Assembly: GCA_965197905.1 (NCBI GenBank)
Contig: CBDAOB010000002.1
Coordinates: forward strand, 1-64,000
Reading direction: 5' to 3'
From: Candidatus Latescibacterota bacterium
GTDB taxonomy: Bacteria > Latescibacterota > UBA2968 > UBA8231
DNA: 64,000 nt
This document shows positions 3,297-24,413 of this stretch, one piece after another (within the stretch, counting starts at the first letter, position 1; every line of letters starts with the position of its first letter). The notes below the pieces were generated by a model that saw only the letters and a program-made list of their open reading frames with translations, was not told where the DNA came from and searched no databases. The translations under genes were made by a program, and so were the position numbers.

Positions 3297-3325
3297 GTCG
3301 TTTACACACCATTTGACCCAAGCTC

Positions 3326-3398
3326 GTCCCCGAACCCGCCGCAGGCGGGTTGCAGCGGAGGCCCGGCAGGGCCCGAAGCCGGGGACACGATGTTATAG
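3326..3398 (-). other. attC site truncated by IS256 insertion
   Basis: GTCCCCG...hairpins...CGGGGACAC GAT GTTATAG; left core missing at IS end. Confidence 0.8.
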
Positions 3399-3521
3399 GC
3401 CGTGCCCCACACGGCCTCAGGAATGACCCTTCCGCGCGAGTTACGGAGCCCCTGAATCCGCTCCCGTCGGCTGGAAAAGCTGCTCAGGCACACTGACCGT
3501 GATACTACTACAGGAGGTCAC

Positions 3522-5189
3522 CTACTCCATCTTCTTCGCCGGCATCTCCTTGCCTCCCTGGAAGAGGGTCAGGCCCATTACTAGGCCCGCGTTATCCAAT
3601 TGGAACTCGATCTGAGCATCTACAACCCTGTAGACGAAGCGCGTCTCGGATTCGGGATAGATTGGAATCGCTGGTTGCCCAGTGGCCTGCGCCATCAGCT
3701 GTCCGGTTTCATTCGTAATCGATATCACGAATCCCGGTAGCAGTTCGTATTTCCCGACGTACCGGTCCAGAATCTCGGGAGCCAACTGCATACTCTTTTC
3801 GTCGGGCATTATCGCCCCGCGTTGCATGGCCTTAACGTCCTGGCCGCCCTGGTGCAGCACGAGATGGGTCACCTGGCCCTTCTCATCTTTCCCGAACGAG
3901 ATCTGCGCGTCTACGATTTTGGAGAAGAATTCGGTTTCAGCTTCAGCGAATATCAGGGATTTTGGTTGCCCCGTTGCCTGCAGGTAAAGCCCTTCCGGCT
4001 CGTGCGTTACGGTGAGCACAAAGGTAGGCACGACTTCGTACTCCCCGACATAGGACTCGTATATCTCCGCGCCCAGAGCAATCTCCTTCCGCTCCTTGGG
4101 CAGCTCCAGCTTTGCTATCTCGAATGCCGGATTGATCAGGTGCCGGCCGATGTCGTCGATATCGTTTGCCGAGTTGGATAGCACCACGACCCCGAGCCCG
4201 GTCTTCCGGTCCCAACCGACGAAGCTGTGATACCCGCCTGTCTTACCGTTGTGCCACACGATCTCCGATTCGTGCTTCTTGTGGGTGAGCCAGCCGAAGC
4301 CTATCTCCATTTCCGGTCTTCCAGCCGGCAATCGTGCAGAGTGGGCTGCATCCATTGCGTCCCGGAAATCGGTCTCCACCAACGCCATATTCGCGGCCAG
4401 AAACCGAAGCATGTCTTCCGTGGTAGAACGGATCGCTCCTGCCCCGGCGAACGTCGGGACATCCCAGTTCGACGTCGGCTGCCTCATCGCCGTGTGACCG
4501 GTTGCCATTCGCTTGTGCAGATCTGGAGTCAGATGGATCACGGTGCTCTCCATCCCCAGAGGTCCGCAGATGCGAGTTCGCACAAGGGTCTCATAGTCTA
4601 CGCCCGCGTTCCGTGCCAGTACGTGTCCCAGCAGTCCGACGCCCAGATTGGAATACTCGAACGCTTCCCCGACTGGTCTGGTCAGGGAGTAGCTGGACAG
4701 GAACTCGTACATGTTCTCCACAGTGTAGTCGGCGTAGGGATTCTGGGGATTCGTAGGTTTGAAGTTGGTCGGCATCCGTGGGAGGCCCGACCGGTGTGTC
4801 GCCAGGTCAAGGGGTGTGATCTCCTTCCCGTCTTTGGAGGGAACCGTCACGGATTCCGGGAGGAATCTCGAGACCGGGTCCTCGAGACGGAGTTCGCCAC
4901 GCTTCACTGCATCCGCCAGCAGCGTCCCCGTGAAGACCTTGCTCACCGAGCCGATCTCGAACACGGTGTTCGCCCCTACTTCCGTATCGCCCTTCAAGTC
5001 TGTCTTGCCGTAGGCGACGACCTTGCGTCCTGTGCTGTCTACGATCCCGACACTCTTCTTGTAGAGGTCTATACGGTCGCGCAGAATCGTCTCGATGGAG
5101 TCATCGGAGGGCATTCCCTCAGCCGACGCTGTGTGTGCCGACATCGCCAAGGCCACCGCCAACGCTAGGTATTTGCATAGGGCTCTCAT
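3522..5189 (-). CDS. Serine hydrolase (beta-lactamase/AmpC-like fold) with two C-terminal DUF3471-like repeats, signal peptide
   Basis: FEIGSVSK (SxxK), YSN, WHNGKTGG; repeated YVGxYE...L..QATGQP. Confidence 0.85.
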   Translation of the reverse strand: MRALCKYLALAVALAMSAHTASAEGMPSDDSIETILRDRIDLYKKSVGIVDSTGRKVVAYGKTDLKGDTEVGANTVFEIGSVSKVFTGTLLADAVKRGELRLEDPVSRFLPESVTVPSKDGKEITPLDLATHRSGLPRMPTNFKPTNPQNPYADYTVENMYEFLSSYSLTRPVGEAFEYSNLGVGLLGHVLARNAGVDYETLVRTRICGPLGMESTVIHLTPDLHKRMATGHTAMRQPTSNWDVPTFAGAGAIRSTTEDMLRFLAANMALVETDFRDAMDAAHSARLPAGRPEMEIGFGWLTHKKHESEIVWHNGKTGGYHSFVGWDRKTGLGVVVLSNSANDIDDIGRHLINPAFEIAKLELPKERKEIALGAEIYESYVGEYEVVPTFVLTVTHEPEGLYLQATGQPKSLIFAEAETEFFSKIVDAQISFGKDEKGQVTHLVLHQGGQDVKAMQRGAIMPDEKSMQLAPEILDRYVGKYELLPGFVISITNETGQLMAQATGQPAIPIYPESETRFVYRVVDAQIEFQLDNAGLVMGLTLFQGGKEMPAKKME

Positions 5190-5230
5190 TCGGGCTCCTT
5201 TCCTTCTATGGCAGTTTCAGTGGGCATGGC

Positions 5231-5320
5231 CTATAACGTTTCACCGATTGCCGAACCTGCGAAGCAGGTTGCCGAAGGCCAAGGCGCGCATGCGCCGAAG
5301 CGGCAAACGAGTTGTTATAC
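5231..5320 (-). other. attC site (family A)
   Basis: CTATAAC...TTGCCG...CGGCAA...GTTATAC with three internal hairpins. Confidence 0.9.
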
Positions 5321-5350
5321 GCTGACAGCCGGTTTTGTGACAAATGACAT

Positions 5351-5917
5351 TCAACTCCGCCCGAGTACGGCATCAAGAAACAGACGATTTGACTGAGACA
5401 GATCCAACTCACTCAACTCGGCGTACGGATGAAATACAGAGTCCTGCTCCCAATCTCCAAGTACCCTCTTATGCGGTAGATGTGTCTCTGCCTGAGCTCC
5501 GAACACCAGCTGGAAAAAGTCAGGATATGGATAAGCGTATCCCTCCGGTTTGGGGCTTAAGTGATGGAAATGCATAAAACCCAGGAGCGACTCTTCCCTG
5601 ATCGTCCAACCCGCTTCCTCCAAGACCTCGCGGCGGAGCGTCTCTTCAATCGACTCACTGTCTTCACGTCGGCCGCCTGGCAGGATGTGATAGGTTCCAT
5701 CCTTACTGTGAACCATGAGTACGTCCTGTTTGCGCAGCAAAACGCATCGGACCGAAGTGACATACCCCAAGGGAGGACTCTTGTTTCCAAAGTAGCTTGT
5801 GATGCTGAGATGCATCTGTCCATCACACCACGCGGCAGATTCCACAATAGCTGGCTCCAGGTCCATCAAAAAAGAGGCTATCTCCGGTTTCATAGCCACG
5901 TCGCCTTGATACTCCAA
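5351..5917 (-). CDS. NUDIX hydrolase
   Basis: PGGRREDSESIEETLRREVLEEAG Nudix box. Confidence 0.85.
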   Translation of the reverse strand: MEYQGDVAMKPEIASFLMDLEPAIVESAAWCDGQMHLSITSYFGNKSPPLGYVTSVRCVLLRKQDVLMVHSKDGTYHILPGGRREDSESIEETLRREVLEEAGWTIREESLLGFMHFHHLSPKPEGYAYPYPDFFQLVFGAQAETHLPHKRVLGDWEQDSVFHPYAELSELDLSQSNRLFLDAVLGRS

Positions 5918-5937
5918 TTATCCTCTTAGCTGTTTGC

Positions 5938-6010
5938 GTATAACGTTCTCGCCGTGCCCGAACCGCGAAAGCGGTTGTGCGAAGGGCGGAAGCCCGAAGC
6001 CGGGTTAGGC
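5938..6010 (-). other. attC site (family B) with ~10-bp deletion in the L''-R'' arm
   Basis: ...GAAGCCGGG|TTAGGC lacks the CACGGACGTG seen in sister sites. Confidence 0.8.
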
Positions 6011-6069
6011 GAAGCTGGCGCGGCCGCTTTTACGGCGAAGCCTCCAAGGGCGCAACGATGCAACGGTTG

Positions 6070-6631
6070 TCAGACTGCGGATGTGCCAAACATGAATGTT
6101 ATTTCCTGGTGGAAGTGGAAGTCATCGTCCGGAACAATGAACTCTAATCTATCGCAAATGAACGAACCTTTGGGTGACTTGTCCTGAAGTTGGTCGCAAA
6201 AGCTTGTGACTCTTTTCTAAGGAGATGAACTCTGCAATTGTCATGTGCGGCGGTATATGCCTCCTCTTATGCTCCTTGCCACCAAACGCTCGGGATTTGC
6301 GGAGGACCTCCTGCAAGTCGCGTATTGGCTCCTCAGGGTGTATTGGGAATGAGACGCCGGGCGTGAAGTGTGCTGAAATGGAGCTCAAATGGCTCAAAGT
6401 CCTTCAAGACAGCATGGATCTCAGCCTCCAGTCGGGAGTCATCTCAAGACTGAGTGGGTCAGATACCGAAATGTGAGTGCAGCAGGCGGCATGCGATTTG
6501 GGATCGTACCGCTCGCGCAATGGATCTATTAGATCGCTCACCTCTCTCGTAGGCATGATGAGGATCAACCCAAGTCGATAGTCAAGCTGCCAGTTCTCCC
6601 AACTATCTGTATTCCGTGCGTACTTTATCAT
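6070..6631 (-). pseudogene. 2H phosphoesterase (2'-5' RNA ligase family), two frameshifts
   Basis: HISV and HMTI motifs in consecutive frames; third frame continues ...GSFICDRLEFIVP to stop at 6070. Confidence 0.7.
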
Positions 6632-6659
6632 CGTTGGTAGGCCCCTCTGCTCCAGTTTC

Positions 6660-7494
6660 GCATAACGTCTCGCGGGTTTGCGAACCGCGAAGCGGTTGCC
6701 GAAGGCCAAGGCGCGTAGCGACGCAGGTAGGGTCGAGAACTGGCGCGCCAGCCTTAGGGTTCGGTGGGTTCCCCATGGCTTTCGCCATAGCCCTCAGTCC
6801 GACTCCCATCGCTACGTTTCCAGTTCCCGCCGCCTCAAACCGGACGTGCGGATCTCCCGCATCCGGCTTCCCGACGAACGTCACATCCAGGCACACGCCA
6901 CAAGGACTTCACCTGGTAGTCAAGCTGCTTCCGATGCATACTAGTCTTACTGCTGGAGGCAATAGGCTCACGCCACTCTCCAACCCTCTGCACTTCCGCA
7001 GCATGTCCGAAGTCAGGCCCCTTCCCTCCACCGGAGTTACCCGGCTTCCTCGGTACTACGCGCCTGTCCGCCACCTCATCCAGCCCAGTCTGGCCCTCGC
7101 GGGTTACCGGTTGGAGGCACTCGCTGCTTCCACCGGATGAGGCTTCCCGTGTTGCGCCACATCTCCTCTTACACACATGCTGTCGCCACTACCCCGGCGG
7201 AACAGCTGGGTGCGCTTGTCGCTCGACTTCCCCAGCTGCAGCGGCCTTCCCTGGTTTACGGGCAGGTCGGCTTCCGCATTACACTTTTCGAGGCCTGCTC
7301 AGCGTTTACTCACGTTACGGCCTGTGTGCTCGCCAAGTCGCCCAAGGCGACCCTCTACACCGGAGGCTTCAGCGGCTTCGTCGCCTCCACCACTGCTCCG
7401 ATTGCTACCGGCTGGAGCGACCCTTGCCGGGTGGGATTCGCACCCACTGAAGATGTGCGCCTTAGCACGGCGCACCGCAAACGGGTTGTTACCC
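6660..7494 (-). other. attC site interrupted by ORF-less intron copy 1
   Basis: GTTTGCG...CAG|intron|CGCAAAC GGGTT GTTACCC. Confidence 0.9.
6727..7475 (-). mobile_element. ORF-less group II intron, copy 1 (749 nt)
   Basis: Minus strand starts GTGCGCCGTG, domain V GAAGCCGGATGCGGGAGATCCGCACGTCCGGTTT (6870-6837), ends CGACCCTAC. Confidence 0.93.
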
Positions 7495-7574
7495 GAAGTA
7501 TACCCCGTTCAAGAAGTAGCCCGACATTCCAGGCATTACTTTGTCCGCTCTCGATGCGAATGATACGAATTGCG

Positions 7575-7894
7575 TCATCTAGCCGCTTTGACAGGGGTGC
7601 TAAATTTGATCCTGACCTTGGATAAAACTACGAGGATCTTGTAGTCAACTGTAGTATCGGGATAAACTTGAACGATCTTGTAGTCGATGGAGGAATCCGG
7701 CTTAACGACGCTTATAGAATAGCAACGCCCGATTCAGGCACATGTAGTCGAGGCAGTTGTTTCAAAGCATGCTCAACCCTTTCTACTGAGGCGGAGTCAC
7801 CTTGAACGACGAGGGGTAACGGAGCTTCAGTTGGCTCGCCACAGCCACTGACGGAAATTGCCCCTATAGTTAGCATCCGAATTGCTCTTCTCAT
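7575..7894 (-). pseudogene. Small putative lipoprotein, probably frameshifted near 7712
   Basis: Lipobox-like VSGC; shifted frame continues with repeated PDxxxDYKI. Confidence 0.4.
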
Positions 7895-7919
7895 TGTCGT
7901 TTCAATCTTCTCATATTTC

Positions 7920-8767
7920 GGGTAACGCCTCGCCGGTTTACGAACCCCGAGCTTACCGAGGGGTTGCCCGAAGGGCCCAGGCGGCACAGCCGTCGCAGGT
8001 AGGGTCGAGAACTGGCGCGCCAGCCTTAGGGTTCGGTGGGTTCCCCATGGCTTTCGCCATAGCCCTCAGTCCGACTCCCATCGCTACGTTTCCAGTTCCC
8101 GCCGCCTCAAACCGGACGTGCGGATCTCCCGCATCCGGCTTCCCGACGAACGTCACATCCAGGCACACGCCACAAGGACTTCACCTGGTAGTCAAGCTGC
8201 TTCCGATGCATACTAAGTCTTACTGCTGGAGGCAATAGGCTCACGCCACTCTCCAACCCTCTGCACTTCCGCAGCATGTCCGAAGTCAGGCCCCTTCCCT
8301 CCACCGGAGTTACCCGGCTTCCTCGGTACTACGCGCCTGTCCGCCACCTCATCCAGCCCAGTCTGGCCCTCGCGGGTTACCGGTTGGAGGCACTCGCTGC
8401 TTCCACCGGATGAGGCTTCCCGTGTTGCGCCACATCTCCTCTTACACACATGCTGTCGCCACTACCCCGGCGGAACAGCTGGGTGCGCTTGTCGCTCGAC
8501 TTCCCCAGCTGCAGCGGCCTTCCCTGGTTTACGGGCAGGTCGGCTTCCGCATTACACTTTTCGAGGCCTGCTCAGCGTTTACTCACGTTACGGCCTGTGT
8601 GCTCGCCAAGTCGCCCAAGGCGACCCTCTACACCGGAGGCTTCAGCGGCTTCGTCGCCTCCACCACTGCTCCGATTGCTACCGGCTGGAGCGACCCTTGC
8701 CGGGTGGGATTCGCACCACTGAAGATGTGCGCCTTAGCACGGCGCACCGAAAACCGCTGTGTTACAA
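7920..8767 (-). other. attC site interrupted by intron copy 2
   Basis: GGGTAAC...GGTTTACG...CAG|intron|CGAAAACC...GTTACAA. Confidence 0.88.
7999..8747 (-). mobile_element. ORF-less group II intron, copy 2 (749 nt; one 1-nt insertion and one 1-nt deletion vs others)
   Basis: Same sequence as copy 1 except TACTAAGTCT (~8214) and GCACCACT (~8716). Confidence 0.93.
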
Positions 8768-8800
8768 GAAGTGCACGAACATCAAAACACGCTCCTAACC

Positions 8801-9439
8801 TTACCGGTTACTCGGCTTGACCGTTGAGTAGAGCAACGTTGGCGGTTCTTCCTTGACCATTCTATCAAGTAAATCAAAAGTGTTGCAGAATTCCCTGAGA
8901 GCCTCCTCGCAAAGAACAGCCTCTCCCCGTGTGTGCGCCGCTTTTTCAACCTCAACAAGAACGGGCCATTTCAACTCCGAGCATTCCATGACCTTCACAT
9001 CAAGTCCCAAGGGATCAAACGCTCCGACGTGATCATCGCCGCTAAATGACATGAAGGGATCATATCCCAAATAGCGCAGCTCAGTATCAAGCTCCCGCGT
9101 TGACACAGCTTCTTTGTTGCATTCGAGGCGTCGCAGAATGGGGCTCGCTATGGCGCCGTTCGTTACTTCCTCACCGAGTTCCTGGCGGATATTGGCGAAT
9201 TCACCAACATCAGGGCCCTTCCAAGCTAGGGACCATCTTGTTTTTTCATCCAACAGGACCTTGCTAATCCGCAGTAGCTGACCCGACTTAAATAGTGCCA
9301 GTCCATAGATCGTCGTCTCCCATTGACCCGAATGCCACATTTTGGAGCGGAGAAACGGCAAACGACAGAGCACCTCCTTGCGGTCCTGAAAATGAAATCG
9401 AACCTCAACTTCGAACGGGATTTGCGAAGCTGACTCCAA
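8801..9439 (-). CDS. CYTH-like domain protein
   Basis: N-terminal FEVEVRF, LLRI, KGP, VEVEK. Confidence 0.6.
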   Translation of the reverse strand: MESASQIPFEVEVRFHFQDRKEVLCRLPFLRSKMWHSGQWETTIYGLALFKSGQLLRISKVLLDEKTRWSLAWKGPDVGEFANIRQELGEEVTNGAIASPILRRLECNKEAVSTRELDTELRYLGYDPFMSFSGDDHVGAFDPLGLDVKVMECSELKWPVLVEVEKAAHTRGEAVLCEEALREFCNTFDLLDRMVKEEPPTLLYSTVKPSNR

Positions 9440-9493
9440 GGCTCAGTATCCTCCACCAGATTGTCGAATAGCCCATCGCATTGATTGCATTTC

Positions 9494-9584
9494 TTGTAAT
9501 GTTTTCACAATTCACGAAGCCGCGAAGGCGGCTTGCCGAAGGCCCAGCGCCGAATGGCGCGCAGCGGGAATTGCTGTGTTATAT
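9494..9584 (-). other. attC site with mutated R' core (AAT instead of AAC on + strand)
   Basis: TTGTAAT...CAATTCACG...CGGGAATTG...GTTATAT. Confidence 0.8.
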
Positions 9585-9613
9585 GACGTGGGCCCAGTTC
9601 ACTATCTTAGTGT

Positions 9614-10690
9614 TCAATTTTCGTTGGCAGTTTTCGCAAAAGCAGCGACTATCTCGGGAAAGAAGCTCCTAAGTGTGGGGTACTTTGACCGATTGGCTTC
9701 GTAGGCCAGCAGCTGGGAATGGACAGCATCAATGTATTTGAAACCTCTCTCCTTTTCGGCCTCAAGCGCGTTCTTTCCAGCGTTCGGACCCATTTCGGAA
9801 TGGAACAGCCGACTGGTAATGGCCCTGATTACGTGCTCGTTGACGCTGGTTTGCCAGTCCATGTAACCTCCAGCGCTGACCATCTGATCGGCTATAGGTG
9901 CGTACAATGCCGAGAATTCGTTGACACTCTTGAGGTTTTCGGCAGTGATGTGATCGACGAACGAGTGAGCGAACTCATGCCAAAGAACGTCCTGAAGCCG
10001 CGCAAGGTCGCCGAAGTCGGGGACGCCCTTGCTTTCCCCAACAGGGCCGATAATGCTGAAAACGTCAGTTACTCCTTTGTCTCGTACGATGCTGGGCCCA
10101 AAGCCGCCGTGATGTAAAAGTGGTCCGAGGATGATGTGATAGTCGCCTTGTTTCTCCCCGACGTATTCCTCCAGCGCCGCCATATAGTCTGTGTCGCCGA
10201 GCTGTCGTAGGGTTTTGGACCGAAGCGTCTCGTAATAGTCGGCGTTGGCATCATAAAAGGCCATGAAATCTGAGACTTGGGCGAAGTCGCGCAACCCCTC
10301 CACGAACCCAATGATATTGATGTCGCCACCAAAAGCTCGGGTTATATAGTCCTCAATGGCGTCATCGATGATCGGACTCTCGAAGTTTAGGGCGGGAGGT
10401 TGAGACAGATGGATGATGACGATCGCATAGGCATCGGAGGCGAGTGCCCTCGCCATGATCCCTCTGAGGAACTTGACGGCGTGATGATCCTTGTGATCGG
10501 CGAAGTGGTCGAGAATCTCTTGTTTGTATTGGATGTCGTAATTGGTCAAACCTTGGTGATCAGCCAACACTCCGACGACCGTGAGAAGCTCAATACGTGG
10601 ATCAACCGTTACACTGAACCTGAGTTCGGCCGCAGCGCTGCTGCCGCCTTGAGTGAGTAGAAAGATTGCCAGGATCGTCGCGTTTCTCAT
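9614..10690 (-). CDS. Secreted DUF4932-like zincin-motif protein
   Basis: Signal peptide, VDPRIELL, WHEFAHSFV, VNEHVIRA. Confidence 0.7.
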   Translation of the reverse strand: MRNATILAIFLLTQGGSSAAAELRFSVTVDPRIELLTVVGVLADHQGLTNYDIQYKQEILDHFADHKDHHAVKFLRGIMARALASDAYAIVIIHLSQPPALNFESPIIDDAIEDYITRAFGGDINIIGFVEGLRDFAQVSDFMAFYDANADYYETLRSKTLRQLGDTDYMAALEEYVGEKQGDYHIILGPLLHHGGFGPSIVRDKGVTDVFSIIGPVGESKGVPDFGDLARLQDVLWHEFAHSFVDHITAENLKSVNEFSALYAPIADQMVSAGGYMDWQTSVNEHVIRAITSRLFHSEMGPNAGKNALEAEKERGFKYIDAVHSQLLAYEANRSKYPTLRSFFPEIVAAFAKTANEN

Positions 10691-10713
10691 CTCAAACGTC
10701 CTTTTTCCATGTC

Positions 10714-10803
10714 ATATAACGTTTCGCCAGTTACCGAACTCGCGACGCGAGTTGTCGGAGACCAAGGCAGCGTAGCTGCCGCAGCGGTAACAGGTTGTTA
10801 TGT
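10714..10803 (-). other. attC site (family A)
   Basis: ATATAAC...GTTACCG...CGGTAAC...GTTATGT. Confidence 0.9.
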
Positions 10804-10821
10804 GACGAATGATTACTCACG

Positions 10822-11289
10822 TCAGTTAACCGGTGCTCCACATTCCAGATATGCGATCTTCGCGGTCTCCCGTGCCTCCACAGCCGCTTTTAGTCGGCCC
10901 TCGTAGTAAGGTGCCAACAAGGATAGTGCTGAATCCAATGGCAAAAACCGGTGTTCCGAGATCTCATCTGAGGGAAGTTCGATTGCGTCTACCTGCTCTT
11001 TAGCAAGGGAGCCACCCCAGAAGAGAAATACCAGCGCATCTTCCTTCTTGGTCGCCGCTACGCCAGCAGCTTCTGCTTGTTTTCCTTCCCCCCAGGAATC
11101 GACACACAGAAGTTCACGAACATCTAGCGAAAGCCCGGTCTCTTCCTGAATCTCTCTGATGCAAGCCCGTAGGGGGGACTCACCTTAATCAACATGCCCG
11201 CCTGGAAGCAGCCAGTAGTCGCGGTACGTCGGCTTCAGGATCAGCAGGTGGTTCTCAAATTCAATGACAGCTCCGGCGGAAACTATCAT
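10822..11289 (-). pseudogene. NUDIX hydrolase with in-frame stop inside the Nudix box (not in ORF track)
   Basis: MIVSAGAVI...WLLPGGHVD*GESPLRACIREIQEETGL; TAA at 11187-11185. Confidence 0.8.
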
Positions 11290-11349
11290 GAAGCAACCTT
11301 CAAGACCATCCTGTAACGCCCGTAACAACAGTTACCATTAGCATTTGTC

Positions 11350-12189
11350 ACATAACGTTTTGCCGGTTTACGAACTCACGAAGTGGGTTGCCGAAGGCCA
11401 AGGCGGCATCGGCGCCGCAGGTAGGGTCGAGAACTGGCGCGCCAGCCTTAGGGTTCGGTGGGTTCCCCATGGCTTTCGCCATAGCCCTCAGTCCGACTCC
11501 CATCGCTACGTTTCCAGTTCCCGCCGCCTCAAACCGGACGTGCGGATCTCCCGCATCCGGCTTCCCGACGAACGTCACATCCAGGCACACGCCACAAGGA
11601 CTTCACCTGGTAGTCAAGCTGCTTCCGATGCATACTAGTCTTACTGCTGGAGGCAATAGGCTCACGCCACTCTCCAACCCTCTGCACTTCCGCAGCATGT
11701 CCGAAGTCAGGCCCCTTCCCTCCACCGGAGTTACCCGGCTTCCTCGGTACTACGCGCCTGTCCGCCACCTCATCCAGCCCAGTCTGGCCCTCGCGGGTTA
11801 CCGGTTGGAGGCACTCGCTGCTTCCACCGGATGAGGCTTCCCGTGTTGCGCCACATCTCCTCTTACACACATGCTGTCGCCACTACCCCGGCGGAACAGC
11901 TGGGTGCGCTTGTCGCTCGACTTCCCCAGCTGCAGCGGCCTTCCCTGGTTTACGGGCAGGTCGGCTTCCGCATTACACTTTTCGAGGCCTGCTCAGCGTT
12001 TACTCACGTTACGGCCTGTGTGCTCGCCAAGTCGCCCAAGGCGACCCTCTACACCGGAGGCTTCAGCGGCTTCGTCGCCTCCACCACTGCTCCGATTGCT
12101 ACCGGCTGGAGCGACCCTTGCCGGGTGGGATTCGCACCCACTGAAGATGTGCGCCTTAGCACGGCGCACCGTGAACAGTGTTGTTACAA
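11350..12189 (-). other. attC site interrupted by intron copy 3
   Basis: ACATAAC...GTTTACG...CAG|intron|CGTGAAC...GTTACAA. Confidence 0.9.
11421..12169 (-). mobile_element. ORF-less group II intron, copy 3 (749 nt)
   Basis: Same sequence and ends as copy 1. Confidence 0.93.
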
Positions 12190-12195
12190 GAAGTG

Positions 12196-12621
12196 TCACG
12201 CGCTCAATGCCAGAGTCTCGTTTTGCAACCACCCACCAATGACTTTGGCCAGGCCGACGTCGTGCCGTTTGAATCCCATGCTCTCATAGACGTCAGGAAG
12301 ATCGGAAAACAGATGCACATGCTGTCCATCAAACTTCGAAACGACGATTTCCATCATGCGGGTAGCAACCCCTCGCCTCCGAAATGCCGACAGCGTCCAG
12401 ACATCCACGACGTATGCATTACAGACACCGTCCGAAAGTGCTCTCACTGTGCCAATTATGCGACCCTCAACGTACGCGATACAGTACGAGTGGCTGTTCT
12501 CGAATGAGCACCGAAGTTGTCCCGCTGTCCGTCCGTTGTCGAACTTGTCTTGGGAGAAAGTCTGCTTCATTTCAACCCAATCGACGCCGTGGAGATCCGT
12601 TTTATAGGTAACTTCCATCAT
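12196..12621 (-). CDS. GNAT N-acetyltransferase
   Basis: IIGTVRALSDG, VWT...FRRRGVATRMM, YESMGF. Confidence 0.85.
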   Translation of the reverse strand: MMEVTYKTDLHGVDWVEMKQTFSQDKFDNGRTAGQLRCSFENSHSYCIAYVEGRIIGTVRALSDGVCNAYVVDVWTLSAFRRRGVATRMMEIVVSKFDGQHVHLFSDLPDVYESMGFKRHDVGLAKVIGGWLQNETLALSA

Positions 12622-12653
12622 CGCAATTTCCCCGTGGAGTTAGAATACATTTC

Positions 12654-12731
12654 TTGTAACGAGAAAGAGTGCCCGAACCGGCGCAGCCGGTTTCCCCGGA
12701 GCGAAGCGGAGGCGGGCACTCGGTGTTGGGC
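12654..12731 (-). other. attC site (family B variant)
   Basis: TTGTAAC...GAGTGCCCG...CGGGCACTC GGT GTTGGGC. Confidence 0.85.
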
Positions 12732-12765
12732 GCTGTGCCAGTTTTGGAATCTTCGCACCTTCCCT

Positions 12766-13221
12766 TTAGGTCGAAGAGGGGCGCATCCGGGTCTGCAGTG
12801 GTTCTTCCATGGGTTCGGAGTCCCACCACCCCATAAACTTGGGGATTCCATCATGTAGATCTAACATGGCTTCATCGCAGTGAATATGGTAGCTACCTTC
12901 GTGAACTAAGCCCGAAACGGTTAGTAGGGCGGCATAAACTACGGTATGCTCACTGCCTGGACGATTCATCAAGCCCGATCCACAATGCCGACACCAATGT
13001 CGGTTACTAATTCCACTTCGGTAATTTTAAATCAACTCTTCTCCCTGAACGACGTGTACGGCTTCGTTCGGCCAAACAGCCGTGGCGTTGATTGGCGCCG
13101 CATGCCATGTTCGGCAGGTTTTACAATGACAATATCCAGCCCTGACCGGTGGACCCTCCACTCGAATCTTGACCTGACCGCAGAGACAGCTCCCTTCATA
13201 TTTCACAGCATCAGATGACAT
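12766..13221 (-). pseudogene. GFA/Mss4-like Zn protein with premature stop at 13029-13027
   Basis: GSCLCG, CHCKTC, then * then RHWCRHCGS in the same frame. Confidence 0.8.
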
Positions 13222-13285
13222 TATCTCTTCTCCTTAAGAATACACCGACAGAATAGCGTTGTTTTTTGGGGCGCTTAGGCATTGC

Positions 13286-13360
13286 GCCTAACGTTTCACC
13301 GGTTGACGAACCGACAGGCCAAGGTGCGCCAGCACCGCAGCGGCAAACGTGTTGTTAGGC
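13286..13360 (-). other. attC site (family A, first internal hairpin deleted)
   Basis: GCCTAAC...CGGCAAAC...GTTAGGC. Confidence 0.8.
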
Positions 13361-13373
13361 GAAGGAGAACACA

Positions 13374-14057
13374 TCAATATCCACTCAAAGGGCGTTCCCA
13401 TCTGTGATATGTACCATGAACCGTCGCGTTGGTCCGCAGATCAGATGCCAGTCCGTCGCCGCAAGAATCTGCCACAAAAGCACCAGCGTTCAATCTTCCC
13501 TCTTTGGCGGTTCTGTCTTGGGCACATTGGACCACCGCCCGCTGTCCTGAAATGCCTAGTGTCTCGAGGCCTTCGAGCCAAAGACCCCGATAAGTGAATG
13601 TGTCAACTGGAATAATCTCGGCTTCTTGTGGTTGGTCGGTAGCACCATTGGCGAACACAGGTTCCCATAGAAGCAAAGTTCGTCTTAGAGAATCGGTCTC
13701 GAAACCTGCTCTAGAAAAAGCGCGTTGACTTGCTAGGTTGTCAGTTCGAATCGATGCCCCCGCGAGGGAAGCACCGAGTTGTTCACCGTACAACAGTGCT
13801 TCCTTGACTAGGTGGGTTCCGATGCCCATTCCTTGCTCTGCCGGTCTTACGGCGACTAGGTCCAATTCGAATCGCGGATTCGCGCCAGATATTGTGAAAG
13901 CTGAGACAAACCCCGTAATCTCCGCATCGATAGCGACTAGCGTGACGTGCGAACTCGACGACAGATGATCGACGAAAACGTGCCCAAGAAGAGACTCTTG
14001 CCAAACGTCGCCCAGGATGCCGTCGGCGTCGTCAGTAGTTGCAGGTCGAATCAACAA
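13374..14057 (-). CDS. GNAT N-acetyltransferase
   Basis: LIRPAT, VAVRPAEQGMGIG, NLASQRAFSRAGF; TTG start at 14057 after GAAGGGA (the longer ORF-track start lies inside the IS). Confidence 0.8.
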   Translation of the reverse strand: MLIRPATTDDADGILGDVWQESLLGHVFVDHLSSSSHVTLVAIDAEITGFVSAFTISGANPRFELDLVAVRPAEQGMGIGTHLVKEALLYGEQLGASLAGASIRTDNLASQRAFSRAGFETDSLRRTLLLWEPVFANGATDQPQEAEIIPVDTFTYRGLWLEGLETLGISGQRAVVQCAQDRTAKEGRLNAGAFVADSCGDGLASDLRTNATVHGTYHRWERPLSGY

Positions 14058-14094
14058 ACGCTGTCCCTTCACTTTCGGCTTGTATCTTGAAAAT

Positions 14095-14295
14095 CGACTC
14101 CGTTTGATCACATGATCAGTTACATTGGCGAGTATTTGCTGGGGAGGCCGTTTTCGGTTTGAGGCTATGACCTCGCACGTTAGGTAGGCCCCCCACCTCC
14201 GCTGTTAATACCGAGGAAAACCCGAGACGGTCGAGTCTGTATTCTGCAAGCTCGGCAAGCACGGATAGTGGTGGGAGACCAGCAGCCAATATATC
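14095..14295 (+). ncRNA. Putative bridge RNA of the IS110 element
   Basis: Target loop TTTTCGGTT (14151-59)/ACGTTAG (14177-83); donor loop GAAAACCC (14216-23)/TGCAAG (14245-50); ends approximate. Confidence 0.8.
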
Positions 14296-14302
14296 ACGGG
14301 GG

Positions 14303-15313
14303 GTGAACATGCACCAAGAAAATCTAGTCGGCATTGACGTCAGTGCCGCCACGCTGGACGCCGTGCGCAGAGACCGGCGAGGCCAGTTGCTCAATGCAGC
14401 CTTCAGCAACGATACTAGCGGCCACAAGAAGCTCATCAGCTGGGCTACCAGGCGAGGATCAACGGCCCGCATTTGTATAGAAGCTACCGGTGTTTACAGC
14501 TTTCAGCTAGCTATGGCGCTTCATCAACACCCGAAAACAGAGGTCATGGTCGTCAACCCTCGGGCCATCAAGTCCTTCGGCCAAGCGCTCATGCAACGGG
14601 CCAAAATCGATCTAGTGGACGCCGAAGTAATCCTGGCCTTTGTCGAACGCATGGCCTTTGCATCTTGGCACCCGCCACCCGAAGAGGTCCTGCAGTTACA
14701 GTCACTCTCAAGGCGCATTGAGCAGGTGAAGGTGATGCTTAACCAGGAACTCAACCGTCGTCACGCTTATCAATTCCGTGCTGCTGTGGCAAAGTGGGTG
14801 CTCCAAGACATCGAGGTAAACATCCGGCATCTAAGGCGTCGTATAGCTCGTTTGGAAACGCACGGCCTGGAACTGATCGCAGCCAAACCTGAGCTCCAGG
14901 GCGCTTTTCAACGACTGGTCTCCATCAAAGGCGTAGCAGCTATCAGCGCGATGCGGATTTTGGCTGAACTGCTAACCCTCCCACCTGACCTGAAGCCATC
15001 GCAATGGGTCGCTCAGGCCGGTCTCGATCCGCGTGCAAGAGAGTCAGGGGCTTCCGTCCATGGACGTCGGTTTATCTCAAGGACAGGCAACAAACATCTG
15101 CGCCACGCCCTCTACATGCCCGCACTCGTGGCCTTACGACACGAACCACATGTGAAGGCCTTTTATGAAAAACTATTGGCCGCTGGCAAGAGACCCATGC
15201 AGGCAGTGGTGGCCGTGATGCGAAAATTGCTACGATCTATATGGGGTATGCTGAACTACAATCAGGATTTTGAGGACGAAAGATTCTACGAGATTCACAA
15301 GAAAGCAGCTTGA
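14303..15313 (+). CDS. IS110-family DEDD recombinase
   Basis: VGIDVS, IEATG, AKIDLVDA, SIKGVA, AGLDP...ESG, GNKHLRHALYMPA. Confidence 0.93.
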   Translation: MNMHQENLVGIDVSAATLDAVRRDRRGQLLNAAFSNDTSGHKKLISWATRRGSTARICIEATGVYSFQLAMALHQHPKTEVMVVNPRAIKSFGQALMQRAKIDLVDAEVILAFVERMAFASWHPPPEEVLQLQSLSRRIEQVKVMLNQELNRRHAYQFRAAVAKWVLQDIEVNIRHLRRRIARLETHGLELIAAKPELQGAFQRLVSIKGVAAISAMRILAELLTLPPDLKPSQWVAQAGLDPRARESGASVHGRRFISRTGNKHLRHALYMPALVALRHEPHVKAFYEKLLAAGKRPMQAVVAVMRKLLRSIWGMLNYNQDFEDERFYEIHKKAA

Positions 15314-15326
15314 CGGGGAAGAGAAA

Positions 15327-15418
15327 ACCTAACGTTTCTCCGGTTGCCGAACTCGCGCAGCGAGTTGCCGGAGGCCAAGGCGGCGAAGGCCGCCGTAGCG
15401 GCAAACGTGTTGTTACAT
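15327..15418 (-). other. attC site (family A), R' box split by IS110
   Basis: CTAAC...TTGCCG...CGGCAA...GTTACAT. Confidence 0.88.
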
Positions 15419-15430
15419 GAAGTGAATTAT

Positions 15431-15901
15431 TCAGAAGAATTTGACTACGATGTTCGGCGCCTTCACTGAAGCTCCACCCATTGTGATGGTACCCCCACCA
15501 GTCATCAGCAGATATTCAGCATTGCCTTCAGCCGGACCATCGAAGTCGACGTCGAGCAGTGAACCCTTTTTAACAATCACCTCCACAGTATCGTTGGATA
15601 TGCGACCGGTCATCAAGTCAGTCATGAAGACGCCTGTGCGGGTATTCAGAGCAATCTGATCAGCGGTGATGCTGATCAAAGGGTCAATGGCCATTTTCGC
15701 ATCAGTCGCCACATACATCGAGTGCGTCAACGCCTGCAATTCGTATTCGTTGCTCTCGATGGAACCAACAACACCAGCGCAACTCCAGCATTGTCTGTCG
15801 AGGTCGAACATTGGTCTGGCCGAAGTACCTATGAAACCAGAACACCCGAAAGCAAAAAGAAGAACAACCGCACCAAGAATCATTGAGCTCTTACCAGCCA
15901 T
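15431..15901 (-). CDS. Putative lipoprotein, unknown function
   Basis: Hydrophobic signal with AFGC lipobox; fills cassette. Confidence 0.65.
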   Translation of the reverse strand: MAGKSSMILGAVVLLFAFGCSGFIGTSARPMFDLDRQCWSCAGVVGSIESNEYELQALTHSMYVATDAKMAIDPLISITADQIALNTRTGVFMTDLMTGRISNDTVEVIVKKGSLLDVDFDGPAEGNAEYLLMTGGGTITMGGASVKAPNIVVKFF

Positions 15902-15923
15902 ACCAAATCTCCTCTCTCATTTC

Positions 15924-16010
15924 ATGTAACGTTTCACCGGTTACCGAACGCCGTTAGGCGTTGCCGAAGGCCAAGGAGCGCAGCGACGCAGCGGTAACGG
16001 GTTGTTACAG
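15924..16010 (-). other. attC site (family A)
   Basis: ATGTAAC...GTTACCG...CGGTAAC...GTTACAG. Confidence 0.9.
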
Positions 16011-16022
16011 GACGTGGGCTAA

Positions 16023-16400
16023 CTAACTCTTGTCCAACGGTTCGGTATATGTTGACTTCGGTGCGGCCTTTCCGAAAAAGGCCATAAGGTGTGCATCCTC
16101 TTCACCCACGTTCTCGATGCGATGCACAACGCCTTGAGGGATGAAGAGGGTCGCGGGAGCCACGACATCTAGCTGTTCCTCCGTACCCATCCTCACCTGA
16201 AGCTGGCCATTCAAGAAAACGATAGTCTCTTCCGTGTCATGAAAATGAGCATCAATCACCCCTCCGGGTTCCTGATATTGCTCCCAAAACTCACTTTCCG
16301 TCGCACCAACCTCTTTCGTGACCCGCTTGCGATTTCGCACCTTGCTCCAAGCATAGGACTTTCCTTTGGTGAACGGCTGCTCCTCATCTAAGATGTACAT
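16023..16400 (-). CDS. Cupin domain protein
   Basis: HFHDTEE...IPQGVVHRIEN. Confidence 0.85.
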   Translation of the reverse strand: MYILDEEQPFTKGKSYAWSKVRNRKRVTKEVGATESEFWEQYQEPGGVIDAHFHDTEETIVFLNGQLQVRMGTEEQLDVVAPATLFIPQGVVHRIENVGEEDAHLMAFFGKAAPKSTYTEPLDKS

Positions 16401-16416
16401 CTCAATATCCCATGTC

Positions 16417-16499
16417 CTGTAACGTTCTCGCCGTGCCCGAACCGCGAAGCGGTTGCGCGAAGGTGCGAAGCACTGAAGCCGGGCACGGACGTGTTACCA
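16417..16499 (-). other. attC site (family B)
   Basis: CTGTAAC...CCGTGCCCG...CGGGCACGG ACGT GTTACCA. Confidence 0.9.
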
Positions 16500-16546
16500 G
16501 CTGTTGTGCCCTCCGGACGCCCCATGACAGATCTCATCAAGGCAGC

Positions 16547-17212
16547 TCAATCCAACTCGAGCCCCGTCACCAAAAAATAAAACGACTCGAAAATCTGACA
16601 ATCTGTGCGACCAAATGTGATCTTGTCCTGGTGCCCCTGGAGAACGGCAACAGGACGGCAACCGAGTGTCTGTGCGACATCAACATCATGGTCCGTATCG
16701 CCGATCAGGTATGTCTGTGATGGTATCAGGTCGAAGTCCTCTATCAGATCGCGGCACCGCTGCTCTTTGGATGCGGCCAGTCTATCAGTCAACCCATATA
16801 CTCCGCTGAAGTGCTGGTGAATACCCAGGACATCAACCCAGGACTCCACCATCTGCTGTTCAGCTGCCGAAAGCACAAATTGTTTCAATTCAGCGGATTC
16901 AAAGTGTTCTAACGATTCTGCTATGCCAGGATTAAGTGTGCAACCCCTGAGTCCTGCCTGATACACCTCATGGAATTCGTCAGAAATGCTAGATTGCTCT
17001 TCGTGTACGAGATCGAGTCCCAAACGGCTATAGTAGCCGGACACCGGGAAACCAAAGATTCGTCGATGTGTTGTGACATTTATCGTTGGCAAGCCACGTC
17101 TTCGAAGGAGTTCGTTCATCGACTCTGTGGCCAAGTGCACATCATCGATAATGGTACCATTGAAATCCCAGATGACTGACTTCATCGAGCCCAACAAGGA
17201 CGAATCGTGCAC
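16547..17212 (-). CDS. HAD-family hydrolase (start may be ATG at ~17185)
   Basis: IWDFNGTIID, VLSA, IGDTDHD. Confidence 0.85.
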   Translation of the reverse strand: MHDSSLLGSMKSVIWDFNGTIIDDVHLATESMNELLRRRGLPTINVTTHRRIFGFPVSGYYSRLGLDLVHEEQSSISDEFHEVYQAGLRGCTLNPGIAESLEHFESAELKQFVLSAAEQQMVESWVDVLGIHQHFSGVYGLTDRLAASKEQRCRDLIEDFDLIPSQTYLIGDTDHDVDVAQTLGCRPVAVLQGHQDKITFGRTDCQIFESFYFLVTGLELD

Positions 17213-17231
17213 TCACTCAAGGCACAATTGC

Positions 17232-17322
17232 TGGTAACGTTTCACCGATTGCCGAACCTGCGGAGCAGGTTGCCGAAGGCCAAGCCGCCACAGGCGGCGT
17301 AGCGGCAAACGAGTTGTTAGGC
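17232..17322 (-). other. attC site (family A)
   Basis: TGGTAAC...GTTAGGC. Confidence 0.9.
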
Positions 17323-17340
17323 GCTGTGAATGAACCTCTC

Positions 17341-18000
17341 TCAGAACTTCCGCGCCAGAATATTCCAATGCCAGGATCCAGAATAAGTCTTCTCGGCATA
17401 CGTCTGCTCTGTCTCTTGCAGAGTTTCGACTTCGAATCCGGCAAGCAGTTGGTCCACTTCGTGGCGATCAGAGTAGTGGTGTTTGTGATCTCCGTCACCC
17501 TTGTCAGGATTGATAAATGTGTTCCGCTCAATCTCGTGTCCCTTCCCACACCATTCATTGAGCGTGCTGTTGAGGGTCAAGAACACCAGACCTTTTGGGC
17601 GGAGTACACGATGCATTTCTCGCAACGCGGTCTGCATTTCTGACAATGTGCCGTGATAGATCACGTTGAACGATACAACGAAGTCGAACTGACCATCACC
17701 GAAGGGCAACTTCAGCATGTTGCCCTGTCTGATGTCTGCGTTGAGTTCTTCGGATTTCAGCCACTCAGTGCAGTGCTGAAAACCACTATCAGTTGGCTCA
17801 AGCCCAAACGTTTCGAAACCCTCTCGGGCGAATAGCACAACGTGGCGACCAAGGCCAAAACCTAAATCGAGAACAGTCGACAGCCCTTCGTGGCGAAGTC
17901 TTGGCACGAGATCTCGCGCTTGATCATCAGGCACCCGCCAGGGACTCTGGGAATCTTCCTCTTCCCAAAGGGTGTTGAAATCCCGCCCTTCCTTTCTCAA
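17341..18000 (-). CDS. Class I SAM-dependent methyltransferase
   Basis: VLDLGFGLGRH, LPFGDGQFD, RVLRPKG. Confidence 0.88.
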   Translation of the reverse strand: MRKEGRDFNTLWEEEDSQSPWRVPDDQARDLVPRLRHEGLSTVLDLGFGLGRHVVLFAREGFETFGLEPTDSGFQHCTEWLKSEELNADIRQGNMLKLPFGDGQFDFVVSFNVIYHGTLSEMQTALREMHRVLRPKGLVFLTLNSTLNEWCGKGHEIERNTFINPDKGDGDHKHHYSDRHEVDQLLAGFEVETLQETEQTYAEKTYSGSWHWNILARKF

Positions 18001-18025
18001 AATGAATTACTCATAAATTCATTGC

Positions 18026-18116
18026 GCTTAACGTTTCACCGATTGCCGAACCTGCAAAGCAGGTTGCCGAAGGCCAAGCCGCAATAGGCGGCGTAGCGGC
18101 AAACGAGTTGTTATAC
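18026..18116 (-). other. attC site (family A)
   Basis: GCTTAAC...GTTATAC. Confidence 0.9.
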
Positions 18117-18131
18117 GACGTTGGTCCTTCC

Positions 18132-18836
18132 CTACATATGTCTGTTAACCAACACTAAGAATTCGTCCCAACTCCTGACTTCCGCATCAGGAGTGACATC
18201 CTCATTCTCGTGTAGGCGACGATTATACGAAATTGCAGTCATTTGACACTGCTTTGCGCCCAACACGTCAGTTTGCAACGTGTCGCCCATATACCAGATT
18301 TCCGACGGTGAAATTCCCAACCGTAAGGCAGCTGAAGCAAAGATCAATGAATGGGGTTTCCTGATGCCGTAGTCGGCGCTGGAGATAACGAATTCGAAGT
18401 GCCTAAGAAGGTCATGACGCTGAAGCTCCCACGAGAGGACCGCTCCCGTACCCGGATGGTTGCTTATGACACCCATCCTAATGTTTCGACAAGAAAGAGC
18501 TGTCAACGCCTCCGAAGCACCGGGTTCAGGGTCAAAGAGCACAGATGACTTCCAAAACTCCAGCTTAAGCGCGTCCATGGGTTCGCGAAAAGTGATGCCC
18601 AGTCGATCGAAGAGGAGACGATTAAACTGACGATTGGTAAACTCGATCATCGGAAACTCCGTTGAAGGCAGCTCACTCTCGATCCTGTCGACTTCAGCCA
18701 TTACGTCCTCGGGCTGCACTCCATTTCGATCCACTGCGTACTCCAGCAGGCGGGCGTTACCAGCAAGCGGATCAAATCGGAGATTGGTCACAAGGGTATC
18801 TACGAAATCGAAGAGAATTGCTTGGAGCCTATTCAT
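18132..18836 (-). CDS. HAD-family hydrolase
   Basis: ILFDFVDTL, ISN, RKPH, MGDTLQTDVLGA; ATG at 18836 (the ORF-track extension crosses attC). Confidence 0.88.
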   Translation of the reverse strand: MNRLQAILFDFVDTLVTNLRFDPLAGNARLLEYAVDRNGVQPEDVMAEVDRIESELPSTEFPMIEFTNRQFNRLLFDRLGITFREPMDALKLEFWKSSVLFDPEPGASEALTALSCRNIRMGVISNHPGTGAVLSWELQRHDLLRHFEFVISSADYGIRKPHSLIFASAALRLGISPSEIWYMGDTLQTDVLGAKQCQMTAISYNRRLHENEDVTPDAEVRSWDEFLVLVNRHM

Positions 18837-18864
18837 ATATGCTCCCCATTTTACTACCAATGTC

Positions 18865-18949
18865 GTATAACGATTTCGCCGTGCCCGAACCGCGAAGCGG
18901 TTGCAGCGAAGGCGCCTCAGCGCCGAAGCCGGGCATGGACGTGTTATAC
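18865..18949 (-). other. attC site (family B, GGGCATGG variant)
   Basis: GTATAAC...GTTATAC. Confidence 0.9.
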
Positions 18950-19235: not shown

Positions 19236-19311
19236 ATATTCGCCGTGTCCGAACCGCGAATGCGGTTGCGCGAAGGGCGGATGCCCGAAGCCGGGCACGG
19301 GCGTGTTACGC
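19229..19311 (-). other. attC site (family B)
   Basis: GAATAAC...GTTACGC. Confidence 0.88.
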
Positions 19312-19405
19312 GCTGGCGGACAACCCTCCTCAAGTAGCGACTAACTAACGATAAGTCCGATTACACGTCGTATGCGAGCCTCGAATTCCAACTGCGATTA
19401 CCGCC

Positions 19406-19816: not shown

Positions 19817-19839
19817 TCTTGCCTCTTGATCTTAGAGAA

Positions 19840-24406: not shown

Positions 24407-24413
24407 GACGTTG

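What the first reader, a model, noticed from the sequence alone, without database searches (positions are those of the whole stretch)
7254..7362. EBS1 explains exactly which attC sites are invaded
Seen: the intron has a stem-loop CCTG-CCCGTAAAC-CAGG, with candidate EBS1 CGUAAA(C) at minus 7260-7254. The five 5' exons end TTTGCG, TTTTCG, TTCACG, TTTTCG and TTTACG, each within one mismatch or wobble of TTTACG. All 3' exons start with C. Every intact uninvaded attC in the array instead has CCG at this position (TTGCCG, TTACCG, TTCCCG, TGCCCG). A candidate EBS2, CGGUGU (7362-7357), can pair with ACACTG/ACATCG upstream in some copies (tentative). Inference: compatible sites are saturated, and targeting uses RNA-DNA base pairing to the L'' box, even in a very different attC (33823). 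The CCG majority could be escape variants.
Basis: partly seen in the sequence, partly recalled or inferred. Interest (0 to 1): 0.8.

Follow-up and report, generated by a model that had tools for sequence, protein, structure and literature searches.

The report
Gene-less intron reading integron attC arms
A small self-splicing mobile intron that has lost its own enzyme gene copies itself into the recombination sites of a gene-cassette array by pairing two RNA guide segments with the site's left arm; one guide decides which sites can be hit, but many matching sites are still empty.

Summary
Five copies of a 749-nt ORF-less IIB-like group II intron sit on the cassette strand, at the inner end of L'' in five attC sites. 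All 23 empty intact sites of this array carry CCG (p=1e-5). The EBS1 call is right: the loop is Id3 and covaries with the 5' exon in 61 related introns (0 of 5000 permutations reach the score). Three parts of the reading fail. (1) The proposed EBS2 shows no covariation; the real one is AGUGU at 7285-7281, pairing with 'ACAC' at the R''/spacer edge, with a T two bases further upstream. (2) EBS1 is necessary, not sufficient: genome-wide 0 of 39 incompatible attCs are hit, but only 6 of 14 compatible ones, and 5 of 12 insertions lie outside attCs. (3) CCG sites are compensated subfamilies, also found in genomes with no detected copy. A full-length relative with the same guides, grouping with class F/g3, probably supplies the protein. 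The mechanism is ordinary En-minus retrohoming aimed at an unusual target. The scan has noted top-strand non-IIC attC introns in other genomes; print (6 searches) showed only CL1 and class E cases.

The parts
6727..7475 (-). ORF-less group II intron, copy 1 (749 nt, GUGCG...CUAC)
   Evidence: boundaries confirmed by an empty-allele contig
7999..8747 (-). intron copy 2 (differs from copy 1 by two single-base indels)
11421..12169 (-). intron copy 3, identical to copy 1
27875..28623 (-). intron copy 4, in an attC that is also split by an IS110-family element
33951..34699 (-). intron copy 5, in a 147-bp attC of a different type
7254..7260 (-). EBS1, CGUAAAC (7 nt), in the Id3 loop 7262-7254; Id3 stem 7266-7263 / 7253-7250
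   Evidence: covariation with exon -7..-1: 5.65 vs 2.57 permuted, 0 of 5000; compensatory stem changes visible
7281..7285 (-). EBS2, AGUGU, in the Id2/Id3 junction; pairs with exon -14..-10 or -15..-11
   Evidence: covariation 3.55 vs 2.51 permuted, 0 of 5000
7249..7249 (-). EBS3 candidate G facing IBS3 C; delta C at 7261 and delta' G at 7268 are inferred from position
   Evidence: 12 of 12 3' exons in this genome start with C; in relatives only 20 of 52 do, so inconclusive lineage-wide
   Evidence: Rfam alignment; no covariation
6837..6870 (-). domain V with AGC triad
   Evidence: RF00029 39.2 bits, E 5.5e-6, just under the gathering score of 40
7476..7494 (-). left arm of attC 1: R'' (TAAC 7491-7488), IBS2 7489-7486, IBS1/L'' 7482-7476
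6660..6726 (-). rest of attC 1: IBS3 C at 6726, variable terminal structure, L', R'
7920..8767 (-). attC 2, split by copy 2
11350..12190 (-). attC 3, split by copy 3
26310..28642 (-). attC 4, split by copy 4 and by an IS110 element (transposase 26379-27608)
33823..34718 (-). attC 5 (long type), split by copy 5
3325..35557 (-). cassette array with 31 attC-model rows
37056..37995 (-). broken integron-integrase-like gene at the head of the array, on the same strand as the cassettes
   Evidence: TIGR02249 positions 1-148, 90.9 bits

Best explanation
A non-autonomous (ORF-less) IIB-like group II intron of the class F/g3 lineage is mobilised in trans by the reverse transcriptase-maturase of a full-length relative (G000:C3:1187174-1189158) that has the same EBS1 and EBS2. 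It reverse-splices into DNA sites read in four parts: a distal T at -16/-17 (probably read by the protein), IBS2 'ACAC'-like bases paired by EBS2 AGUGU, IBS1 GTTTACG-like bases paired by EBS1, and a C paired by EBS3. The attC left arm supplies all four: R'' TAAC gives the T and the start of IBS2, and L'' gives IBS1. attC sites are therefore the densest set of targets, but recognition is by sequence and needs no hairpin. EBS1 sorts attC subfamilies into usable and unusable; which usable sites are filled is chance and history. Shown: boundaries, guide positions by covariation, the occupancy table. Inferred: trans-mobilisation, who reads the distal T, use of the lagging-strand template, and splicing.
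For: Covariation of EBS1 and of the junction EBS2 with exons in 61 of 80 related loci, holding when reduced to 33 distinct EBS1 or 28 distinct EBS2. All 12 occupied sites have the distal T and at least 3 of 4 IBS2 pairs, against 2.5% of 4244 IBS1+C sites; this includes 5 of 5 non-attC sites. Among 47 attC rows with TAAC in register: compatible 6 occupied and 2 empty, incompatible 0 of 39. Compatible rows lacking TAAC: 0 of 6 occupied. The helper has RVT_1 and GIIM only, YADD intact, no endonuclease domain, and groups with Ni.ha.I1 and the A. caldus g3 protein at 100/98. RmInt1 has the same geometry (IBS2 -9 to -13, critical T-15, G-C EBS3 pair, lagging bias; PMC4075523 passages). 12 of 12 insertions have the intron on the G-rich strand, against 51 of 96 empty matched sites. 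Sister introns with the same EBS2 sit at the same attC position: L013, L029, L127/L109 and the ORF-less L154.
Against: No splicing or homing was observed; RNA contigs cover the intron but show no exon-exon joint. The IBS2 offsets and thresholds were chosen after seeing the sites, and related loci are not independent. 96 of 108 three-part sites are empty, so the rule is incomplete and attC enrichment (8 of 108 sites but 6 of 12 insertions) may include a structural or selective term. EBS3 G is invariant while the 3' base varies in relatives (C 20, A 20, T 8, G 4 of 52). The strand bias rests on 8 independent regions, weak skew, and is confounded with gene orientation. The tree had no class C, D, E or g4 reference.
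Confidence: 0.8

Rival explanations
1. One reading: EBS1/IBS1 plus IBS3 alone decide occupancy and compatible attC sites are saturated.
For: Perfect split in this array: 5 of 5 compatible sites hit, 0 of 23 CCG sites; 0 of 39 incompatible attCs hit genome-wide.
Against: Only 6 of 14 EBS1-compatible attC left halves are occupied (one IS110-end row dropped, one misregistered row C3:296513 added by hand). 4232 of 4244 compatible genome sites are empty. An empty allele of the 7476 site exists in run X1. G020 has 1 copy of a sister intron and 11 empty compatible-type attCs.
Confidence: 0.04
2. The attC hairpin contributes to targeting, as in IIC-attC introns, on top of base pairing.
For: attCs are 8 of 108 three-part sites but 6 of 12 insertions; the insertion falls at the inner end of the L''/L' stem (folds).
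Against: 5 of 12 insertions are outside attCs, four of them in sense orientation inside genes (NADHdh, ankyrin, FG-GAP, FlgE families). With TA rather than T alone the set shrinks to 22 sites with 9 occupied, so sequence explains much of the enrichment. L''/L' pairing would compete with EBS1. Insertions in genes may also be purged, which would mimic preference.
Confidence: 0.15
3. CCG sites are escape variants that arose, or were enriched, under pressure from this intron.
For: Compatible-type versus CCG-type sites are 6:12 here (3 empty plus 3 occupied, counted by hand) but 42:13 in 60 relatives, p=0.0015.
Against: CCG sites differ by two bases in L'' and carry the compensating CGG in L'. They occur in G005, G011 and G015, where the intron DNA search found nothing (only 8 candidates scored per genome). 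A second intron targets the GTGCCCG subfamily. Both patterns were drawn from this genome and kin are not independent. Sorting of existing subfamilies remains possible; de novo escape is unlikely.
Confidence: 0.15
4. The copies spread mostly as passengers of duplicated cassettes, or are assembly artefacts.
For: The cassette upstream of 7476 is duplicated at C3:360467-360911 (98.7%) with a 3'-truncated intron.
Against: The other 12 sites have different flanks and precise junctions; an empty allele exists.
Confidence: 0.03

Closest known systems
Group IIC-attC introns (S.ma.I2 and relatives; PMC3001079 passages, PMC7923331 parts 1-4 of 7)
   Same: Mobile group II introns lodged inside attC sites of cassette arrays; no endonuclease domain.
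   Different: They enter the bottom strand, opposite to the cassettes, at TTGT/T in R'', use a 3-4 bp EBS1 plus the DNA hairpin, lack EBS2 and have a CGC triad. This one enters the top strand at the inner end of L'', uses a 7-nt EBS1 and an EBS2, has an AGC triad and also hits non-attC sites.
UHB.I2 (IIB1/CL1) and H.ha.F1/F2 (class E fragments), Sonbol and Siam 2021, PMC7923331 (parts 1-4 of 7 read; supplements not read)
   Same: Non-IIC introns in cassette arrays; UHB.I2 is in the cassette orientation.
   Different: Other protein classes; UHB.I2 lies just downstream of an attC, single cases, no occupancy rule or EBS2 test. The exact H.ha insertion points are in supplements I did not read.
RmInt1 of Sinorhizobium meliloti (class D; PMC4075523 passages)
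   Same: Works like it: En-minus, EBS1+EBS2+EBS3 pairing, a distal T two bases beyond IBS2, G-C EBS3 pair, lagging-orientation bias.
   Different: Different protein group; no attC link in the passages read; here IBS2 lies 1-2 nt further out and the mobile form is ORF-less.
Class F / g3 introns Ni.ha.I1, D.a.I1 (Toro and Martinez-Abarca 2013, PMC3552965 passages and Table S2)
   Same: Helper protein 46.8% identical to Ni.ha.I1 and in one clade with it; same Id2-junction-Id3 layout; 1985 nt, RT-X only.
   Different: No attC mention in that paper's main text (0 hits); most relatives here are not in attCs of these two families (2 of 52 hit the models).

Membership tests
Group II intron, IIB-like | 5' GUGYG and 3' AY boundaries | tested here: met
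   GUGCG...CUAC; 749-nt skip
Group II intron, IIB-like | Domain I match and domain V with AGC triad | tested here: met
   RF02003 106.8 bits (cut-off 49); RF00029 39.2 bits (cut-off 40), E 5.5e-6
Group II intron, IIB-like | EBS1-IBS1 and EBS2-IBS2 pairing | tested here: met
   covariation, 0 of 5000 permutations for each
Group II intron, IIB-like | EBS3-IBS3 pair for the 3' exon | tested here: inconclusive
   12 of 12 C here; 20 of 52 C in relatives with the same G
Group II intron, IIB-like | Bulged branch A in domain VI; splicing | not tested
   domain VI was not folded; no spliced joint in the RNA contigs of X5, X6
Group IIC-attC | Insertion in the attC bottom strand, opposite to the cassettes | tested here: not met
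   5 of 5 copies on the cassette strand
Group IIC-attC | Target TTGT/T in R'' | tested here: not met
   target GTTTACG-like|C at the inner end of L''
Group IIC-attC | CGC triad, short EBS1, no EBS2 | tested here: not met
   AGC triad, 7-nt EBS1, EBS2 present
Class F / g3 (protein-based; applies to the helper) | Clade with named g3 proteins | tested here: met
   100/98 with Ni.ha.I1 and A. caldus, apart from g1 and g2; no C, D, E or g4 reference in the 22-row tree
Class F / g3 (protein-based; applies to the helper) | RT and X domains only, no D/En region | tested here: met
   441 aa, RVT_1 96-317, GIIM 339-414, nothing else
Integron attC site | R''/R' boxes and L''/L' stem after each cassette | tested here: met
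   box names set by canonical spacing from R'' (recalled); the models were my own, built from 13 window sites
Integron attC site | Recombined by IntI | not testable with these tools
   a full intI is at G000:C3:204281 (366.7 bits) and a broken one heads this array

The most novel reading that the evidence does not exclude
Class F/g3 introns are pre-adapted to integrons. A lineage-wide preference for T(A) just upstream of IBS2 matches the one invariant motif of attC sites (R'' TAAC), so a change of the two RNA guides alone retargets them to any attC family. This happened at least twice in g3 relatives (guides CGURAAY/AGUGU and UAUCAGC/ACUGC) and again in a second ORF-less intron of this genome. 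An old ORF-less lineage then rides arrays as a MITE-like parasite. Landing at the L''/VTS boundary leaves all four boxes intact but lengthens the VTS by 749 nt, which should lock the flanking cassettes in place while splicing preserves read-through: a switch that stabilises chosen attC subfamilies.
Probability: 0.3. Interest if true: 0.72.

Novelty: new variant of a known kind. Interest (0 to 1): 0.5.

Why it matters
Reviews treat attC targeting as the speciality of one IIC lineage that reads a bottom-strand hairpin. This case shows ordinary guide pairing reaching the same sites from the other strand. It comes with a full natural dataset: 12 insertions, 47 scorable attCs, both guides located by covariation, and the helper protein in the same genome. 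That makes the targeting rule, and the effect of an intron in the VTS on cassette excision, directly testable. In most sedentary integrons the bottom strand lies on the leading-strand template (25 of 30, PMC5371416 passages), which would expose the top strand to En-minus introns. That may explain why such introns keep turning up in large chromosomal arrays (inference).

Tried and rejected
Single-sequence folding of domain I was uninformative (z -0.84). My first palindrome scan was noisy and was replaced by HMMs. My first D5 pattern found nothing. The automatic register misplaces some rows with other spacer lengths, so its 39 and 30 are approximate. The RT at 780-2453 is not the helper: 32% identical, groups with g1, inserted in an IS256. 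RNA contigs of X5 and X6 cover the intron and not the flanks, but contigs cannot show expression level or splicing, so I drew nothing from this. Runs with small word shares were not used. Searches for more copies gave few: 1 metagenome contig and 3 other genomes of 167; the G119 copy has another EBS1 and no attC-like flank. Delta-delta' pairing as the 3' exon rule does not fit here (delta C, exon C). No paper on class F or ORF-less introns in attC sites appeared, but the library lacks most subscription papers, among them Leon and Roy 2009, Quiroga 2008/2009 and Simon 2008, which I did not read. No structure or complex prediction was run.

Full report
What is there. Window 3325-35557 is a cassette array on the minus strand with 31 attC-model rows, headed by a broken integrase gene on the same strand; a full intI lies on contig C3. 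Five attCs are split by a 749-nt element that begins GUGCG, ends CUAC, matches Rfam D1D4-4 at 106.8 bits and has a domain V with an AGC triad. The genome holds 13 ORF-less copies (12 complete, one 3'-truncated) and one full-length relative of 1985 nt placed directly behind an ORF-less copy. The relative is identical over the first 225 nt, has the same EBS1 loop and junction, and encodes a 441-aa RT-maturase with YADD and no endonuclease domain. Its closest proteins come from Candidatus Latescibacterota genomes (82-83%). In a 22-row tree it groups with the named g3/class F proteins Ni.ha.I1 and A. caldus at 100/98, apart from g1 and g2; classes C, D, E and g4 were not represented.

The observation. 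All exon ends, the C at +1 and the CCG of empty sites are as reported. By hand count, 5 sites are invaded and 23 are empty with an intact left half, all CCG; 3 damaged rows were dropped. Fisher p is 1.0e-5. A contig of run X1 skips exactly 6727-7475, which fixes the boundaries and shows that this compatible site exists empty in a related allele.

Is the loop EBS1? Yes. I fetched 80 loci of related proteins; 69 had enough upstream DNA to align, 63 gave a 5' boundary and 61 an intact Id region. The loop varies between families and tracks the exon end. With one locus per distinct EBS1 (n=33) the mean pairing score is 5.65 of 7 against 2.57 after permuting exons, and 0 of 5000 permutations reach it. 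The stem shows compensatory changes, and Ni.ha.I1 has the same layout. The loci are related, so these counts overstate independence.

EBS2. The variable segment between Id2 and Id3, AGUGU at 7285-7281, does (3.55 vs 2.51; 0 of 5000). Examples are L058 CGCUC with GAGCG, L035 AUGGU with ACCAT and L079 ACUGC with GCAGT. It pairs at -14..-10 or -15..-11. In 14 of 33 families the two bases just upstream are TA. In attCs this places the T of R'' TAAC at -16/-17 and makes its AC the start of IBS2. RmInt1 has the same arrangement, with IBS2 at -9 to -13 and a critical T-15 read by the protein (PMC4075523, passages). Whether the T here is read by protein or paired by a junction A is open.

Does EBS1 explain occupancy exactly? 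It is necessary, not sufficient. Among 77 attC-model rows genome-wide, 47 have TAAC in register: 6 compatible are occupied, 2 compatible are empty, and 0 of 39 incompatible are occupied. Six compatible rows without TAAC in register are all empty; one is an IS110 end and was dropped, and one misregistered site was added by hand, giving 6 of 14. The empty C3:295147 has a perfect IBS1 and the same 17 upstream bases as the occupied C3:301157. The genome offers 4244 IBS1+C sites under a relaxed rule (402 exact), of which 12 are used. Adding the distal T and 3 of 4 IBS2 pairs leaves 108 and keeps all 12. Five of the 12 are not attCs, and all five carry the upstream motif against a background of 2.5%. 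Four of these lie in sense orientation in NADH dehydrogenase, ankyrin, FG-GAP and flagellar-hook genes. One more site (C3:1186424) looks like an attC left-arm remnant that my models did not score. Thresholds were set after seeing the sites, but the EBS2 position came from other genomes.

CCG. The CCG subfamilies lose pairs at both -4 and -3 (at most 4 of 6). A sister intron with EBS1 CGUGAAU occupies ATTCCCG|C with a single mismatch (L014), so C at -3 is no block in itself. CCG sites have the matching CGG in L' and occur at 13 sites in 7 of 60 relatives, including three genomes with no intron match. Loss of invaded cassettes could do that; the test is weak. A second ORF-less intron (827 nt, C3:349429-348603) has a loop GCACGG matching CCGTGC|C in the GTGCCCG subfamily and occupies 1 of 9 pattern-matched sites.

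Beyond this genome. The same guides hit the same attC position in L013 and L029, in G020 (L127/L109), and in L154. L154 is an 83%-identical ORF-less intron that shares the deletion junction and sits in the long 33823-type attC, with a compensatory change at -7. L079 and L080 carry other guides and sit at the same register in a different long attC-like palindrome (judged by eye, not by a model). Most relatives are not in attCs of the two families modelled (2 of 52).

How it works. Shown: boundaries, guides and the occupancy table. Inferred from group II intron biology: the helper protein binds the ORF-less RNA, the lariat reverse-splices into exposed single-stranded DNA and is copied from a replication primer. 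Trans-action on ORF-less bacterial introns is described in PMC4424553 (passages). All 12 insertions have the intron on the locally G-rich strand against 51 of 96 matched empty sites (p=0.001), which fits a lagging-strand template, but there are only 8 regions and gene orientation confounds it. The insertion point is the inner end of the L stem, so the intron lengthens the VTS. Long VTSs cut replicative recombination by up to 4 logs but not recombination of conjugated single strands (PMC8946536, passages). The effect on these cassettes is untested.

Comparison and novelty. It works like RmInt1. It fails every IIC-attC feature tested. Print holds a CL1 intron and class E fragments in arrays, and mentions one top-strand IIC case (PMC7923331, parts 1-4 of 7; its supplements, unread, may give insertion points that bear on this). 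Six searches showed no class F or ORF-less attC intron. Earlier unchecked notes of this scan describe top-strand non-IIC attC introns in other genomes, at R', R'' or the left arm; I used them as context only. Interest 0.5.

Noticed in passing
G000:C3:349429-348603 (L010): A second, single-copy ORF-less intron (827 nt) in a GTGCCCG-type attC, three bases further out, with its own matching loop; only its 3' 157 nt resemble the main intron and no helper was looked for.
   Followed up: partly
G000:C3:1186425-1189158 (L009): Tandem of an ORF-less copy and the full-length helper. The helper is identical for 225 nt and 87-91% beyond, with a G-to-T change at the base of the Id3 stem. Recombination or insertion at the 5' junction could explain it; tandem insertions are reported for RmInt1.
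   Followed up: partly
window 26310-28642: One attC hit twice: by the intron and by an IS110-family element about 25 bases further in.
   Followed up: partly
window 439-2579 (+): A different group II intron (557-aa ORF, groups with g1) inside an IS256; 11 protein matches in the genome, several with the IS around them.
   Followed up: partly
window 37056-37995 (-): Integrase-like gene with an internal deletion, on the same strand as the cassettes and directly upstream; this recalls 'inverted integrase' integrons (label recalled, not tested).
   Followed up: no
window attC sites, e.g. 35468-35557: The extra unpaired bases seem to lie on the L'-R' arm, not the R''-L'' arm as in canonical attCs (canonical layout recalled); this could affect which strand is recombined.
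   Followed up: no
window 7920-8767 and 11350-12190: In two invaded sites L' is exactly CGTAAAC while L'' has one mismatch, so L'' may have drifted after insertion.
   Followed up: no
G000:C3:360466-359767 (L011): Duplicate of the 7476 cassette with an intron copy cut off at nt 700.
   Followed up: partly
G000:C1:65627-64879: A copy in the last codons of an NADH dehydrogenase subunit gene, sense orientation; would have to splice or tolerate a changed C-terminus.
   Followed up: no
L079, L080: Relatives with other guides inserted in a long attC-like palindrome at the same register.
   Followed up: partly
window 3522-5189, 25031-25921: Cassettes resembling a class C beta-lactamase/serine hydrolase and an aminoglycoside 6-adenylyltransferase, both far below curated cut-offs.
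   Followed up: no
window 14303-15313, 20082-21167: Two more IS110-family transposases in the array, on the opposite strand.
   Followed up: no
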